DNA from: a virus
Lineage: Duplodnaviria > Heunggongvirae > Uroviricota > Caudoviricetes
DNA: 25,967 nucleotides
Direction: 5' to 3' (one strand)
Virus record (IMG/VR): IMGVR_UViG_2519899560_000026
Span: 1-25,967 of that record
Shown here: positions 18,001-24,000 of the stretch, one piece after another
Position numbering within the stretch: the first letter of the stretch is position 1
How the letters are laid out: each line of letters opens with the position of its first letter
Program-made: the position numbers

Positions 18001-21000
18001 AACTGCGTGGAGGGCAACACCACGCTTTACGCCCTGCCGAAACCCGAGGTTGTCCTGCGCTGGCGTGAACAGACCACAGATGACTTCCGCTTCTGTTTTA
18101 AGTTTCCGGCGACCATTTCGCATCAGGCAGCATTACGACATTGCGATGATTTAGTGACTGAATTTTTGACCCGCATGTCACCGTTGGCTCCGCGCATTGG
18201 GCAATACTGGCTGCAACTGCCTGCCACATTCGGCCCACGGGAGCTGCCTGCGCTTTGGCATTTTCTCGATTCTCTCCCTGGCGAATTTAATTATGGTGTG
18301 GAAGTCCGCCATCCACAGTTTTTCGCCAAAGGGGAAGAGGAACAAACGCTTAATCGCGGTTTACATCAGCGCGGCGTTAATCGGGTGATTTTTATTAGAC
18401 ACGTTTAAATACACTACCTAAAGCGATACAATCTAGGTATCAGTTTTGAGGTGGTAAAAAATGAAACGTGTCATTTCATACATTCGTTTCTCATCAGAGA
18501 AGCAAGCTAAAGGCGACTCACTCCGCAGACAGTCTAAGATGGTCACTGATTGGCTTAAGGCTCATCCTGAGTACTATCTGGATGAATCCCTTACTTTTCG
18601 TGATTTAGGCGTTAGCGGGTTTACTGGTAAGCACTTGAAAGGTGGCTTAGGTGACTTTCTAACCGCTATCGAGAAAGGGCTTGTTAAAGCTGGTGATACG
18701 CTCTTGATAGAATCTCTTGACCGTTTGTCACGTCAGGCCGTAGACCGAGCAAGTGAGCTACTCAGAAACATTCTTCGCTCTGGTGTAGATGTGGTCACCT
18801 TGTCCGATGGTGAACATTACACACGAGAAAGTTTAAAAGACCCGTTATCCTTGATTAAAAGCATTCTGATAATGCAGCGGGCGCATGAGGAAAGTCTGAG
18901 GAAGTCTGAGCGTATACAGGCAGCATGGGATGCAAAGAAAGAAGCTGCTAAAGCTGGTATCAAGATTTCTAGGCGTTGTCCTGCATGGCTTAAGCTTAAT
19001 GATGACCGTAAAAGCTTCTCTGTGATACCTGAGAAAGTGGAGACTGTGAAGAGGTGCTTTCAGCTACGGTTAGAGGGTAAGTCTATCTGGGAGATTGTCA
19101 GAACTCTTAATGATGAATGTCACCAGTCGATGAACCAGTATAAGCCGGGTAAGTTTGGTCAAACCTCAGTGCAAGACCTTCTGAAGAATCGCTCTGTAAT
19201 TGGTTATTTCACACCTAAAGGCCGTGAGGAGATAGCTGGTTATTTCCCCTCTATCATCCATGAGACTGATTTCTACAAAGTTCAACAACTATCACATTCT
19301 CGTTACGGTCGAAAACCTGTTTCAGCTAAACCATTGAGTGTGAATCTCTTTAAAGGTGTTATCCGTTGTTCTGAATGTGGTCATGCTCTGATTATCACAG
19401 GCTTTAGCGATACAAGAAACGGGATTTATCGTTGTCCTCTTCGTAATGAAAACCGTTGTAGTGCTAAAGGGCTGTCACGTAAGCAAACCGATGGTACATT
19501 GCTTGCCCTGCTATCTCGTCTTGACCGATTTGATAGCGATACGACGAATACCATAGATACGCTGAAGCTACACCGTGAACACATCTCAAGCAATATAGAA
19601 AAGCTGGTACAACTATCACTGGAAATTGAAGACTTGTCCGCTATTACCAGCAAACTAAGACAGTTAAAAGGTGAGCTATCACAGGTTGATGCTGATATCG
19701 AGAAGGAGACACAACGCCTTAAATCTATTGATGTGGGTTGTTTGTCTGATTGTGACTTGACTACAAAGGCGGGAAGGATTGAAGCACAACTGATAATCAA
19801 AAGTGCTGTTAAAGAGGTCGTTTTAAATACTGCTAAACGTCGCTGTAAAGTGACTTTTCACAATGGTAGAGCAATCACCTTACCAATAACAGAAAACCCC
19901 TCAGAGGACGTTACAGAGGCTATACAGTCGCTTTCTGAGGTCACTGAGAGGGGTTTAATAGGTGTTGATGAGGTTATCATATAGTTGAGATTCTATCGTC
20001 AGTATCGCTTGTTAGGATTCACAGAAAACTTCTTCAAAGTACTACCTGTACCAGCATTATTAAGCACCTTTGAAGCTTGCTCATTAGCGGCATCTGAGAA
20101 GGTGCTTTTTCCGTTCTCAACTTTGACACTTTTACCACAATTGATACGGGCTTGAAGTTGCTCATTAGTAAGTTCACTCGTAGAGCGATTATATAGCTCC
20201 TGACACATCAACATACCGTTACCTAAGCTTGTCGTAGTGTTCCCTGTATTCTTTTTACTGGTAGCACCACCATCACTTGTGGTAGAAGTCCTTCCGGTCG
20301 CAGCCGAAATATCAGTTTGCCCTACGATAGCTTTAAAGTTAATTTCCTGAAAAGTTAGCTGGATTCTAAGACCATTGGCAATACCAACATCTTTAGAGGC
20401 TTTAAAACTCGTAATAATGGAATCGTCAATTTTGATACCGTCTCGACAGATGACAGAAATAATTTGTTTCTGGTCACGCCAGCTTTCTAGAGTGTCGATG
20501 AAGTTTTCCACCAGCTTAGTATCTCTTGAGATAAGGATACTACCGGATTCACCAACCACAACGACACCACTAATAGTGATTGTTCTGGGTGCTCTTTGAA
20601 CATTATCTGTGACGGTTTGCCCTGATTGCATATTTTGAGTGGTAACCATCATAGGGCTATCAAATTCCATGTTTTCAGTTGCTGATAGTGACAAGAAATT
20701 ATCTGGTTGGCCTTGTAGATGAAAGTAAACGCCATCTTTGCCAGTGTAACGAAGCTGATTAGTGTAAATCATTAAATTCTCCTTTGATTTCAAAGACTTA
20801 GTATATTTTAATCATTTTTAGCTAAGCCTTTGATATATAAGTATTTTCTCTGTTAAGCGTGAGCTACGTAAAAACTAATTTTTAGTGGGTATATCTGTTC
20901 AGGAGATTTCACGTAGCATTCGGCTATTATTATTCTTCCTCTGGATAGCTTGAACTTAAGAGCATATCCTGCGTGAACTGGTCATTAGCCGATTGATTGA

Positions 21001-24000
21001 AAGTAAAGAAAGCTGGTTCATCCGGTCTAACAATTGCTTCACCAGTGATATTAACTGCTAGAGGCTTCTTGGTTTCTGCTGTTAAATCGTCTACCTTGCG
21101 TGATAGTTCACTAATAGTCATTGCAAGTTGAGCATTGCTATTCACAATGTCACCTGTAATAGCTGGTGGAGTTGATTGTGTGTTATTAACAAGGTTACTC
21201 ATTGGCTCTTGGAAGTTAGCAATTTTATTAGCCGCACCATTAAACCAGTCAGCGATAGAACTACCAATCTTAGCCCATCCCTCATTAATTTGGTTTGGTT
21301 TAGATGAATCGCCTTTGTATTCAGGGTTGAAGTTTGTTTCTGTGCCAATACCTGATTGATGTAAGTTCGGATTCTTAGCTGCTTCAGGGTTTAAATTATC
21401 AAGAGCAAAGTTTACCAACTCCGCATAAAGAACAACTTTACCGACTTTGCTTAATGCACCACCTGAAGAACCAGCCTTTCCAGCTTTAGCTTTATTAACA
21501 GCGTCACCGAATGAAGTAACAGCATTTGCAAGGTTTAACAAGCCTCCAGCTACATTTGCAGCCTTTTGAGCAGTAACAGCCACAGCAAGCATCTTCAAAC
21601 CATCAATTAACCCATCAGATAAACCGTCAACAATTTTTTTCTGAGTGTCATTTAGTGAACGATAAGCCAATGTCACCTCGTCAAAGAACGCCCTTACCCT
21701 GTAACTAATATCAGTCAGGTTATCGACACCATGTGACATATCGCTCATCAAGCTACCAAAACTTTCACCTAATGTTTTACCACTCCCACCAAGAGCGTTT
21801 AAAAGCGTTGTTAGGCTTCTTGTAAAATCTTGCAGACCATCTTCAGAACCTCTGAAAATACTATCAAGCGTGGTATTCCAAGAGTTTTTCAGGTTCCCTA
21901 GTTGTGCCTGAGTACTTTCTGAAATAGCTTTCCAGCCACCTTTAGCGGTGATTTGTTTATTCAGTTCCTGAGTGACCTTCTGAAGAGTATCGGCAGATTT
22001 TAAAGCCCCCTTCTTCATGGCATCAAATAATTCCTGTTCAGTCTTTCCGGTTGCTTTAGCGAATACCTGCACCATACCAGGAACAGCTTCAGCTAATTGC
22101 CCCTTAAGCTCTTCAGCCATAATCTGACCCTTACCAGCCATCTGTGATAATGCTGTAAATGCTCGCTTAATCTCTTCTTCACTTCTCCCCATCAGACGAG
22201 CATAGCCAATCATATTTTTAAAAAGTTCTTCAGAACCTTGAATACCCATAGACTCTTTAGCTGAAGCACCGAAACCAGCAAACTGTGATTGCAGTTCAGC
22301 GATATCTAAACCCGTTGTTTGAGCTAATGACTTTGTGAACTCTTTTACCTGACCTGCATCTTTATCAAATACGAAATCAATTGAACGTTCAGCACTTGCA
22401 CGCTGTAAACCAATTTCCATAATCTTCTGATAACTGGCTAATACAGCCTGCATTGAGATAAATGCACCTGCTGTTTTAACTGCTGCTGAAGACAGGTTAT
22501 CAAGACTATTAGCTGCTCTGTCACCATTAATGCTGGTGGATGTATGACCTCTGGCTTTAGCAATTGCTTCTCTGACTGAAGTATTTAACTGGGCTAACTT
22601 CTCATTGAATTTTGAATTATCCATTGACCCAGCTTTAGCAGATAGTCCGTAAAACTGAGATTTGATGTATTTCTGCAAAATAGGGTCGAAGCCTTTTAGC
22701 TTGCTCATATTCGCTGAATAAGCTGCTCTTACAGCTCGGTCACCAGTATTTACTCTTGGCTGTCTTGGCTGTCTAAGTGGCTTTAAAGTATCCTCAATTT
22801 CCGTTTTAATCTTAAACGCTTTAGTGTTTTTAAGACGCTGCTCAATCTTGGAAACAGTTTTATCGACATTCCTTTCCATGACCTTGAGGGAATCATTTAA
22901 AGGCGTAGGGTTAACTTTAAAAGCTTTATTCAATCGCTTCTCAATTCGTGATGCTACCTGCATCGTTTGTTTCTCGGCTTTTTCCAGACCTTTTAAAACC
23001 TTCTGAGAGCTAAAACTTAGCTCAATCAAAAAATCATCAACTTTAAATTGTGCCATTGTTCATATTTCACCTCTTTAAGCGTGAGCTACGTAAAAAATAA
23101 TTTTTGGTGGGTATATCTGTTCAGAAGATTTCACGTAGCACATATAGGATTCGATAGAAGACTATCTCATATACAAAAAAGGGAGAAACTACCGATGTCA
23201 CTCGATAATCTCTCCCGTAGATTTTTACCCAACCAATTCTTGTTACCTAACCAGATAATAATTACCATCTTCACCGACAATCTGACAATCACTTGGTAAT
23301 TTATCAAGACACCATTTGGCGATTCTCCTGACCCTGTTCTTTTGCTTAGAGGTGGATGATTTGATTCGTTTTGGTTTGTTGGGTTGTTCTTTCAATCTCT
23401 CGCTAATTGCTTTGATAAGTTCATAGCGTTCTGTTAAATCAATCATTCACACCCCTTTTTAATTCGTAGTTAAAGCACCTTTGCGTACTTCGTTGAAATC
23501 TTCGTTAACTGCTCAATATCAGCCTGCATAGCAATCTTCTTAGCATCTTCATATTCTTTCACAAGCTCTTTCATAGCCTGAAGCTCTCTTGAGAGATACA
23601 ACTTAACATTTTCAAGTTGCTTGTTACGTGATGCCAAGATGTTCTGTCTAGCAAGTTCACAGAGTTCTTCATCGCTCTTATTGGTCATGTAAATAAACTG
23701 CCCAGCACCTCTTGAAGCTTTAACCATCTTCACAATTCGATATCCAGCAGGAAGACTACTAATCACGGCTGCGACGTTTTCTGGAAAAGTACCAAAACCA
23801 TCATTGTCTTCATATTGGTAATAGACAAATGGTTTCTGTGACAATTCATCCTGAATCTCAAATTCTGACGGCTCAATAGCTGATTGCATCAGGGTAACTT
23901 TGCTGTAAGCAATATCAAGTCGAATACGCTGTTCTTTTAACTGTGGGTAATATTCACGCTCAAGATTAAATAGTGCTTCACTTTTGCAGATATCTGGCAT

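What the first reader, a model, noticed from the sequence alone, without database searches (positions are those of the whole stretch)
20853..23140. Two 66-bp near-identical palindromic elements placed upstream of consecutive genes
Copies at 20853-20918 and 23075-23140 are 63/66 identical, and each contains the inverted repeat GCTACGTAAAA...TTTCACGTAGC separated by about 36 bp. Each sits just upstream of the RBS region of a minus-strand gene (the tape-measure-like gene and the 257-aa gene). This suggests a shared regulatory site, such as a binding site for an element-encoded activator or repressor, or an element-specific promoter, rather than a mobile-element terminus.
Basis: seen in the sequence. 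Interest (0 to 1): 0.6.

Follow-up and report, generated by a model that had tools for sequence, protein, structure and literature searches.

The report
Repeated regulatory cassette before hijacked tail genes
The two 66-bp palindromic repeats are real and belong to a conserved 65-nt cassette placed in front of the phage-derived tail genes of a widespread E. coli chromosomal island; it most likely controls when those genes are expressed, but how it works is not settled.

Summary
In detail: 20853-20918 and 23075-23140 are 63/66 identical, each with 11-nt inverted arms. The genes lie on the minus strand. Copy 2 abuts the tape-measure (TMP) ribosome-binding site just after an intrinsic terminator; copy 1 lies 80 nt upstream of the Dit-like baseplate gene.

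The setting is a ~12-kb island integrated in yecE. It carries a serine integrase plus Felixounavirus-like TMP and Dit genes and occurs in ~9% of complete E. coli genomes.

I collected 147 copies:
- The Dit copy is near-universal (94/96 islands).
- The TMP copy is optional (49/86 islands), and many "empty" sites are deletion footprints.
- 140/147 copies are exactly 65 nt.
- The arm cores, a TAnnnT hexamer 6-7 nt before an invariant purine, and the tail CACGCTTAA are conserved; the interiors vary.

Against the alternatives: no target-site duplication, no copies in phage databases, no Rfam match, no significant covariation for an RNA helix, and a sigma-70 score at background level.

Best reading (about 0.4): a factor-dependent promoter/operator cassette. 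Main rival (about 0.25): an RNA leader, supported by a frame that stays open to the invariant TAA.

The parts
20853..20918 (-). Copy 1 of the cassette (65-nt core 20853-20917), between the TMP stop codon and the Dit-like gene
   Evidence: the equivalent copy is present in 94/96 related islands
23075..23140 (-). Copy 2 of the cassette (65-nt core 23075-23139), between the intrinsic terminator and the TMP ribosome-binding site
   Evidence: present in 49/86 islands, and many others show deletion footprints
20907..20917 (-). 5' arm of copy 1, GCTACGTGAAA (core TACGTGA invariant)
20863..20873 (-). 3' arm of copy 1, TTTTACGTAGC (core TYACGTA; T/C alternate opposite the invariant G)
23129..23139 (-). 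5' arm of copy 2, GCTACGTGAAA
23085..23095 (-). 3' arm of copy 2, TTTTACGTAGC
20872..20877 (-). Conserved TAnnnT hexamer of copy 1 (TAGTTT), a candidate -10 element, 6-7 nt upstream of the invariant A/G in ACGTAG
   Evidence: 51/52 distinct copies fit TAnnnT. Inference only: the sigma-70 score is at background
23094..23099 (-). Conserved TAnnnT hexamer of copy 2 (TATTTT)
20853..20861 (-). Invariant tail CACGCTTAA of copy 1; its TAA closes the open frame, and with the next bases it reads GCTTAACAGAG
23075..23083 (-). Invariant tail CACGCTTAA of copy 2, directly followed by the TMP Shine-Dalgarno AGAGGTG
23144..23171 (-). Hairpin module TATGAGATAGTCTTCTATCGAATCCTAT just upstream of copy 2; 25/28 identical to the Felixounavirus EC106 non-coding region at 82470-82497
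   Evidence: 0/60 shuffled genomes reach the score
23181..23216 (-). Intrinsic terminator (15-bp stem plus T6) that separates the 67-aa gene from copy 2 and the TMP gene
20930..23056 (-). Tape-measure protein gene (708 aa), flanked by the two copies; 28% identical to the Felixounavirus TMP, with conserved N- and C-termini
19999..20772 (-). Dit-like baseplate protein gene (257 aa from ATG 20772); 74% aa and ~85% nt identical to the Felixounavirus gene next to its TMP
20773..20852 (-). 80-nt spacer/5' UTR between copy 1 and the Dit ATG, with RBS AAAGGAG; together with copy 1 it forms a 157-nt insertion at the point where the phage TMP and Dit genes overlap (GAATAATG)
23243..23446 (-). 67-aa basic protein gene upstream of the terminator; present in 50/52 islands and specific to them
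18461..19984 (+). Large serine recombinase (the island's integrase); the island is inserted in yecE (5' fragment at 17917-18408)

Best explanation
The repeat is a 65-nt cis-regulatory cassette that belongs to a ~12-kb yecE-integrated island. The island carries its own versions of a Felixounavirus tape-measure protein (TMP) and the neighbouring Dit-like baseplate protein.

In the phage these two genes overlap (TAATG). The island has split them and placed the cassette in front of Dit in nearly all islands. In about half of the islands, this window included, a second copy sits in front of TMP, immediately after a strong intrinsic terminator.

The most likely mechanism (inferred, not shown) is a weak, factor-dependent promoter:
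- a TAnnnT -10-like hexamer lies 6-7 nt upstream of an invariant purine;
- there is no usable -35 element;
- an A-tract lies in the spacer;
- the whole is bracketed by two inverted recognition sites (TACGTGA ... TYACGTA, 44 bp centre to centre, at about -48 and -2);
- a conserved +4 to +12 segment (CACGCTTAA) follows.

A protein made by the island or by the infecting helper phage would bind the arms and/or the tail. The tail genes would then be transcribed only at the right time, independently of the terminated upstream transcript.

Shown: the repeat, its family, its positions, its conservation pattern, and the absence of MITE, att-site or RNA-family features.
Inferred: promoter activity, the transcription start site, and the existence of a binding factor.
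For: 1. Position and orientation. Of 147 copies, about 93 lie between TMP and Dit and about 49 lie between the terminator and the TMP RBS. All are co-oriented with the downstream gene.
2. The Dit copy is present in 94/96 islands; one of the two exceptions is split by an IS.
3. A diverged third copy faces outward at the far end of some islands. After circularisation it would point into the integrase gene.
4. A distant relative sits 34 nt upstream of a XerC-like recombinase gene.
5. In islands that have copy 2, nothing else lies between the terminator and the RBS.
6. In an otherwise variable interior, the invariant positions are idx 41 A and idx 45 T, with idx 40 T in 51/52. This matches the key -12/-11/-7 positions of a -10 hexamer, and an invariant A/G lies 6-7 nt downstream.
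7. The length is fixed at 65 nt in 140/147 copies, even with unrelated interiors. That fits a spacing constraint.
8. The arms are invariant rather than covarying, as expected for sequence-specific recognition.
9. The island's non-coding DNA borrows short modules from Felixounavirus regulatory or non-coding DNA, so a dependence on helper factors is plausible.
10. The cassette-plus-spacer is a precise insertion at the phage's TMP/Dit overlap.
Against: - The best sigma-70 score within the element (4-6 bits) equals the median of random 65-nt windows of the island (4.5 bits; the 90th percentile is 7.6). The consensus scan finds no promoter there.
- 37/86 islands have TMP directly behind the terminator with no cassette, so TMP can evidently be expressed by read-through. 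A promoter is therefore not obligatory.
- No candidate binding protein is identified. The arm motif occurs nowhere else in the island.
- The same motif works, or at least persists, in an unrelated AT-rich organism that lacks the island's genes. That favours a cis-acting or host-machinery mechanism.
- The conserved TAnnnT positions can also be explained as part of the stem extension, or as codons of the open frame.
Confidence: 0.4

Rival explanations
1. RNA-level leader. The cassette acts in the mRNA, as a hairpin (7-15 bp stem, ~35-nt unstructured A/C-rich loop) and/or a tiny upstream reading frame: GTG in the 5' arm, 19 codons, and the invariant TAA next to the downstream Shine-Dalgarno. It would set translation of Dit or TMP (coupling or relay after the upstream stop codon, or ribosome-dependent unfolding), or it would protect or process the message.
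For: - Sense frame 2 is open in 49/50 distinct 65-mers. The other sense frames are open in 0 and 5, and the antisense frames in 13, 0 and 13.
- That frame is also open in the +27-nt variant (an in-frame insertion) and in the diverged third-site copies.
- The frame always ends at the invariant TAA, or at TAG in L117.
- Single-base variants in the tail fall on third codon positions: GCT>GCA/GCG, CAC>CAT, AAT/AAC.
- The arm G6>A variant turns GTG into ATG.
- Only T or C is found opposite the invariant arm G, giving G-U or G-C on the sense strand only.
- The sense-strand fold has z = -2 to -6 in most island variants.
- A cis-acting mechanism would explain survival in unrelated hosts.
Against: - There is no statistical covariation: 38-168 of 500 shuffles reach the observed values, and the two outer pairs are broken without compensation in 8-11 of 42 sequences.
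- RNAalifold keeps only the 7 invariant pairs.
- There is no consistent start codon or Shine-Dalgarno, and the frame is not tied to the TMP frame.
- Interior substitutions are mostly non-synonymous.
- The chance of an open frame per lineage is 0.3-0.6, so the signal is marginal once relatedness and the choice of frame are allowed for.
- A 7-11 bp stem closing a 33-41 nt loop is weak (-7 to -16 kcal/mol for most variants).
- There is no Rfam match.
Confidence: 0.25
2. Selfish or neutral palindromic cassette that serves mainly as a recombination linker (PeSL-like or MITE-like). It spreads by copy-paste and gene conversion between fixed intergenic sites, promotes module shuffling of TMP and Dit alleles, and has no dedicated regulatory role.
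For: - The TMP-proximal copy shows presence/absence polymorphism, and deletion footprints are frequent.
- The two copies within one island often belong to different interior variants, and the variants are mosaics of 5' and 3' halves.
- The same 27-nt insertion occurs in copies at two different positions.
- One relic lies between convergent genes in an unrelated chromosome.
Against: - There is no target-site duplication, and no copies outside three fixed positions of one island family. In E. coli there are 607 places in 465 genomes, all chromosomal.
- The Dit-proximal copy is retained in 94/96 islands, with invariant arms and tail despite about 40% divergence of the interior. That indicates purifying selection at this site.
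- No TMP-less island of the kind expected from recombination between the two direct copies was seen among about 90 islands.
Confidence: 0.15
3. A DNA site used by helper-phage machinery rather than by transcription, for example a mimic of a Felixounavirus replication, packaging or DNA-binding-protein site that lets the island be copied, packaged or sensed.
For: - The element's tail plus following bases, GCTTAACAGAG, contains the motif CTTAACAG. In phage EC106 that motif occurs 14 times on one strand (1.7 expected), and 9 of these lie in a 1.75-kb non-coding region with about 26 co-oriented YTAACAR repeats.
- Two short hairpin modules from that same phage region sit next to copy 2, or inside some copies.
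Against: - The element core itself has no significant similarity to the phage genome: 7/60 shuffled genomes score as well, and the best hit is not in the non-coding region.
- There is no hit in 50,697 phage records.
- Many TMP-proximal copies read GCTTAAAGAGG, which breaks the CTTAACAG motif.
- The island's likely replication origin (iterons inside an HTH_36 gene) lies elsewhere.
Confidence: 0.12

Closest known systems
PeSLs (promoter-early stem-loops) of T4-type phages (PMC2839356, PMC4122927)
   Same: Both are short (~65-100 bp) repeated intergenic cassettes that start right after the upstream stop codon and end at the downstream Shine-Dalgarno sequence. Both combine a promoter-like core with an inverted repeat that can span the -35/-10 region and that contains G-T pairs. 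Both occur as direct repeats flanking single genes and show mosaic, recombining variants.
   Different: PeSLs contain strong consensus sigma-70 promoters and GC-rich stems that act as terminators, and they occur about 50 times per phage genome. This element has no sigma-70 consensus, an AT-rich 7-15 bp stem without a T-run, only 1-3 copies per island, and no sequence similarity to PeSLs.
Activator-dependent late promoters of phage satellites and their helpers (P4 Psid/PLL and P2 late promoters with the Ogr/Delta site TGT-N12-ACA at -55; from my own knowledge)
   Same: In both cases a satellite places the same short dyad-containing promoter cassette in front of the morphogenetic genes it needs when the helper is present. 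The promoters lack a good -35 element and depend on a trans-activator.
   Different: Here the dyad arms are 44 bp apart and bracket the whole promoter core instead of forming a compact site at -55. No Ogr/Delta-like zinc-finger activator was found. Neither promoter activity nor helper dependence has been tested.
Leader-peptide / hairpin translational attenuators (for example the 19-codon ermC leader; from my own knowledge)
   Same: Both have a short (~19-codon) upstream frame that overlaps a hairpin and ends just before the regulated gene's ribosome-binding site.
   Different: Here the hairpin does not sequester the downstream Shine-Dalgarno, the frame has no Shine-Dalgarno of its own, and there are no alternative pairings.
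MITEs / Correia-type palindromic repeats (from my own knowledge)
   Same: Both are small, have terminal inverted repeats, lie in intergenic DNA and show presence/absence polymorphism.
   Different: This element has no target-site duplication, is not dispersed in the genome, sits at fixed positions within one island family, and has no cognate transposase. The gene annotated 'transposase' has no Pfam, NCBIfam or PDB support.

Membership tests
MITE / IS terminus | Target-site duplication flanking the element at filled versus empty sites | tested here: not met
   Filled and empty TMP-upstream sites were aligned. The insert TGTGCTACG...GCTTAACAG lies between GTATG and AGGTG with no duplicated flank, and several 'empty' sites are internal deletion footprints.
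MITE / IS terminus | Many dispersed copies at unrelated genomic sites, mobilised by a cognate transposase | tested here: not met
   There are 607 places in 465 E. coli genomes (median 1 per genome). All 143 classifiable island copies are at the TMP-Dit or TMP-upstream position. The 'transposase' annotation of the 238-aa gene is unsupported.
Serine-integrase att site of the island | Sequence shared with the attL/attR junctions at the island's ends | tested here: not met
   The junction sequences in L001 and in the window contain no TACGTGA/TYACGTA motif and show no similarity to the element.
Known structured RNA family (Rfam 15) | A covariance-model match at or near the gathering score | tested here: not met
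   There is no hit at the element, even at E<=5 with permissive filters.
Conserved RNA hairpin | Compensatory base changes that maintain the helix | tested here: not met
   Five of 15 pairs never vary. The covariation score is 0.092 against 0.078 in shuffles, and 38/500 shuffles reach it. The outer pairs are broken in 8-11 of 42 sequences. Only G-C/G-U alternation at one pair is helix-consistent.
Sigma-70 promoter | -35 and -10 hexamers at 16-18 bp spacing that score above background | tested here: not met
   The consensus scan finds none in either copy. The best PWM score is 4-6 bits against a background median of 4.5 and a 90th percentile of 7.6. Only the TAnnnT skeleton of a -10 element is conserved.
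Activator-dependent (phage-late-type) promoter | A transcription start inside or just after the cassette that depends on a trans-factor | not testable with these tools
   This needs 5'-end mapping or reporter assays with and without helper infection.
PeSL-type regulatory cassette | A composite of a strong early promoter and a terminating stem-loop, repeated many times in hyperplastic regions | tested here: not met
   There is no strong promoter. The stem has no T-run and is not reported by the terminator scan. There are only 1-3 copies per island.
Small protein-coding gene / leader peptide | An open frame with start and stop codons and a ribosome-binding site, evolving under coding constraint | tested here: inconclusive
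   The frame is open in 49/50 copies and ends at the invariant TAA or TAG, and tail variants fall on third codon positions. Against this, there is no Shine-Dalgarno or consistent ATG, the interior changes are mostly non-synonymous, and openness is only marginally beyond chance.
Sequence borrowed from the helper phage | Significant similarity of the element core to a Felixounavirus genome | tested here: not met
   There is no hit in the phage collection. The core against the EC106 genome is not above shuffled genomes. Only the flanking or inserted modules are significantly shared with the phage.

The most novel reading that the evidence does not exclude
The cassette is the helper-sensing switch of an undescribed family of E. 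coli phage satellites that parasitise virulent Felix O1-like phages. A helper- or island-encoded factor would recognise the fixed-spacing arms and tail and turn on the island's own tape-measure and Dit proteins, which then enter, or sabotage, the helper's tails. A stranger variant is that the always-open 19-codon frame inside the hairpin is translated and forms a new kind of leader-peptide/hairpin relay. That relay would replace the TMP-Dit translational coupling of the phage.
Probability: 0.25. Interest if true: 0.75.

Novelty: new variant of a known kind. Interest (0 to 1): 0.5.

Why it matters
If the cassette is a helper-dependent switch, it gives a compact, testable handle (65 bp, three invariant motifs) on how a chromosomal island times the expression of stolen tail genes during infection by a virulent phage. 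That is a regulatory problem solved so far only for P4, SaPI/PICI and PLE satellites.

It also marks a widespread island (~9% of complete E. coli genomes) that carries a Felixounavirus-type tape-measure protein and Dit. I found no description of this island in the searchable literature.

If the element turns out to be only a recombination linker, it is an ordinary feature of mosaic mobile elements.

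Tried and rejected
- MITE or IS end: rejected. There is no target-site duplication, the positions are fixed, and there is no transposase.
- Integrase att or pseudo-att site: rejected.
- Known RNA family: none.
- Conserved RNA helix: covariation is not significant.
- Kissing-loop or antisense partner elsewhere in the island: no complementarity to the loop core.
- Copy of a helper-phage promoter or site: the core is absent from EC106 and from 50,697 phage records. A tblastn of the frame-2 peptide against phages gave nothing.
- -1 frameshift extension of TMP into frame 2: rejected. 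The phase between the TMP stop and the element differs between islands.
- Sigma-70 promoter: at background level.
- CRISPR-like, attC-like, oriT/RCR nick site, boxA/nut and ops resemblances were considered from memory. None fitted in orientation or sequence.
- A structure prediction of the 67-aa protein was too uncertain to search with (pLDDT 71, pTM 0.29).
- Literature searches for a Felixounavirus satellite or a yecE island of this kind found nothing relevant.
- A search for Felixounavirus late-promoter or transcription-start-site data found nothing.

Full report
**1. The observation**

The two copies are real. The repeat finder reports 20853-20918 and 23075-23140 as a 66-nt direct repeat, 95% identical, and far larger than any other repeat in the window. 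Each copy carries 11-nt inverted arms, and the arm pattern occurs only in these two copies (4 matches against 0.82 expected).

All neighbouring genes are on the minus strand, so the element reads TGCTACGTGAAATCTyCTGAACAGATATACCCAC..AAAAATTA.TTTTTACGTAGCTCACGCTTAA. Copy 2 follows an intrinsic terminator (23216-23181) and ends directly at the Shine-Dalgarno sequence of the 708-aa tape-measure (TMP) gene. Copy 1 begins 11 nt after the TMP stop codon and ends 80 nt before the ATG of the 257-aa gene.

**2. The setting**

The right-hand 7.5 kb of the window is one end of a ~12-kb island inserted in yecE. It has these parts:
- a large serine recombinase (18461-19984);
- a Dit-like baseplate protein;
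- a TMP;
- 67-aa and 238-aa proteins of unknown function, and further small genes.

Related islands occur in 483 of 5,426 complete E. coli genomes, at yecE, next to tonB, or next to wrbA. They also occur in E. albertii, Shigella and a Citrobacter species.

The Dit-like protein is 74% identical (about 85% at DNA level) to the Felixounavirus gene that follows the phage TMP. The TMP is 28% identical to the phage's, with conserved N- and C-termini. In the phage the two genes overlap (GAATAATG). In the island, homology to the phage stops exactly there, and copy 1 plus an 80-nt spacer has been inserted.

Other island genes include an HTH_36 protein with internal iterons and a Dam methylase. No known defence system was found. 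I found no paper describing such an island.

**3. The family**

Pattern and profile searches gave 147 copies in 114 loci.
- About 93 lie between TMP and Dit, and about 49 between the terminator and the TMP RBS.
- The Dit copy is present in 94/96 islands. One of the two exceptions is split by an insertion sequence.
- The TMP copy is present in 49/86 islands. At least 15 'empty' sites retain a deletion footprint (TATATGA-ACAC(GC)TTAA-GAGGTG), and intermediate deletions exist.
- No target-site duplication is seen.
- A third, diverged copy lies near the far end of some islands and faces outward. In the excised circle it would point into the integrase gene. Most islands keep only its 3' half.
- Four copies lie outside the island. 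Three are 34 nt upstream of a XerC-like recombinase gene in an AT-rich organism. One, with a stop in the otherwise open frame, lies between convergent genes in a GC-rich enterobacterial chromosome.

**4. The conservation pattern**

Inside the islands the interior comes in at least four mosaic variants, and the two copies within one island often differ.

The invariant or near-invariant parts are:
- CTACGTGA in the 5' arm;
- an A-run at idx 35-38;
- T40, A41, T45 and T46, so that idx 40-45 always reads TAnnnT;
- YACGTA in the 3' arm;
- CACGCTTAA in the tail.

The collection patterns forced part of the arm and tail conservation. However, second copies and BLAST-found copies that were not forced show the same pattern, with rare changes: TCTACG, ACTACG, GATACG, CATG, GTAA, and TAA>TAG.

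**5. What it is not**

- It is not an Rfam family.
- It is not a covarying RNA helix. The 7-bp core never varies, the outer pairs break without compensation, and shuffles reach the observed scores in 38-168 of 500 trials.
- It is not an att site.
- It is not present in any phage record or in a complete Felixounavirus genome.
- It is not a recognisable sigma-70 promoter.
- Its loop is not complementary to any other part of the island.

**6. Links to the helper phage**

The core is island-specific, but two short modules are significantly shared with the 1.75-kb non-coding region of Felixounavirus EC106:
- the hairpin TATGAGATAG..CTATCGAATCCTAT directly upstream of copy 2 (25/28 identical);
- the 27-nt insertion found in some copies.

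Neither score was reached by any of 60 shuffled genomes.

That phage region holds about 26 co-oriented YTAACAR repeats, and the element's tail plus the next bases (GCTTAACAGAG) contains one such unit. This is only a lead, because many TMP-proximal copies lack it.

A 20-mer in a hairpin loop upstream of the 238-aa gene matches a phage divergent-promoter region at 19/20 positions.

Like Felixounavirus gene junctions, the island's 'empty' TMP junction is a terminator followed at once by an RBS. This suggests that transcription through the operon relies on helper-induced read-through.

**7. Mechanism**

Three signals overlap in the same 65 nt.

(a) A promoter-like skeleton. It consists of TAnnnT, a purine 6-7 nt downstream, an A-tract spacer and no -35 element. 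It is bracketed by inverted sites at about -48 and -2, with a conserved +4 to +12 segment.

(b) A hairpin on the sense strand. It has G-U/G-C alternation at one pair and z-scores of -2 to -6.

(c) A reading frame (xGC TAC GTG ... CAC GCT TAA).
- It is open in 49/50 distinct copies, in the +27-nt variant and in the third-site copies.
- It ends at the invariant stop codon, and tail variants fall on third codon positions.
- Against this, it has no consistent start signals, the interior changes are mostly non-synonymous, and the statistical support is only marginal.

I rank the explanations as follows:
- Factor-dependent promoter/operator cassette (0.4). It best explains the position after a terminator, the invariant rather than covarying arms, the fixed spacing, and the placement in front of four different kinds of gene.
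- RNA leader or tiny open reading frame (0.25). It best explains the open frame and the element's portability between hosts.
- Recombination linker or selfish cassette (0.15).
- Helper-machinery DNA site (0.12).

That many islands do without the TMP copy shows that copy is dispensable. The Dit copy is the conserved one.

**8. Comparison and verdict**

The closest described things are the PeSL regulatory cassettes of T4-type phages (PMC2839356) and, functionally, the activator-dependent late promoters of the P4/P2 satellite-helper pair (from my own knowledge). The element fails the defining features of both (see the membership table), so it is an analogue and not a member.

The regulatory placement and the non-MITE nature are shown; promoter activity and protein binding are not.

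Novelty: a new variant of a known kind. Interest: moderate (0.5), raised mainly by the island it belongs to.

Noticed in passing
window 18461-25967 (continues beyond the window end); full islands in L001 10562-22300, L003, L004, L005: A ~12-kb island with a large serine integrase carries its own Felixounavirus-type tape-measure protein and Dit-like baseplate protein, plus an HTH_36 Rep-like gene with iterons and a Dam methylase. It has no capsid or packaging genes. It occurs in ~9% of complete E. coli genomes, at yecE, tonB or wrbA. It looks like an undescribed satellite or parasite of virulent Felix O1-like phages; I found no paper on it.
   Followed up: partly
window 24639-24667 (promoter), 24421-24443 (terminator), 24186-24640 (leader), minus strand: A near-consensus sigma-70 promoter (TTGACA-17-CATAAT with TG) is followed about 190 nt later by an intrinsic terminator, and then by a 22-bp-arm hairpin (24207-24284) just before the 238-aa gene. 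This could be a small RNA or an attenuated leader. The hairpin loop (about 24236-24255) matches the Felixounavirus EC106 divergent-promoter region at 74533-74552 at 19/20 positions.
   Followed up: partly
L024/L025 = phage EC106 81150-82900: The Felixounavirus has a 1.75-kb non-coding region between convergent transcription units. It is packed with about 26 co-oriented (C/T)TAACA(G/A) repeats (CTTAACAG occurs 14 times on one strand against 1.7 expected, 9 of them here), plus two TTTACGTAACTT repeats. Its function is unknown: replication origin, packaging site or binding array.
   Followed up: partly
window 1-18408: The left 18 kb of the window is the integrase-proximal part of a lambdoid prophage: CI-like repressor 11853-12572, DnaB-like helicase 6451-7890, Ash/Rha 9868-10701, and tyrosine integrase 16665-17951. 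It is also inserted in yecE, so the prophage and the island sit in tandem, separated only by a 163-codon yecE fragment (17917-18408).
   Followed up: partly
L005 13920-14008 and similar loci (not in the window): In islands of the tonB type, an extra ~85 nt between the TMP stop codon and the element encodes a 17-codon hydrophobic mini-ORF (MLELLIFIATHGNLLIFI).
   Followed up: no
window 23057-23074, minus strand: The TMP Shine-Dalgarno (AGAGGTG) is better spaced for an out-of-frame ATG (ATGAACAATGGCACAATTTAA, 6 codons) that overlaps the true TMP start (ATGGCACAA). This could be a start-overlap control of TMP translation.
   Followed up: no
L056 9740-10309, L005 5448-5996: Some islands carry a second, small Hin/resolvase-type serine recombinase next to the third, outward-facing copy of the element. 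Its orientation relative to TMP differs between L005 and L056, which hints at an invertible or rearranged segment.
   Followed up: no
window 23470-24186: RefSeq annotates homologues of the 238-aa protein as 'transposase', but it matches nothing in Pfam, NCBIfam, PHROGs, PADLOC or PDB sequences, so the name looks unfounded.
   Followed up: yes
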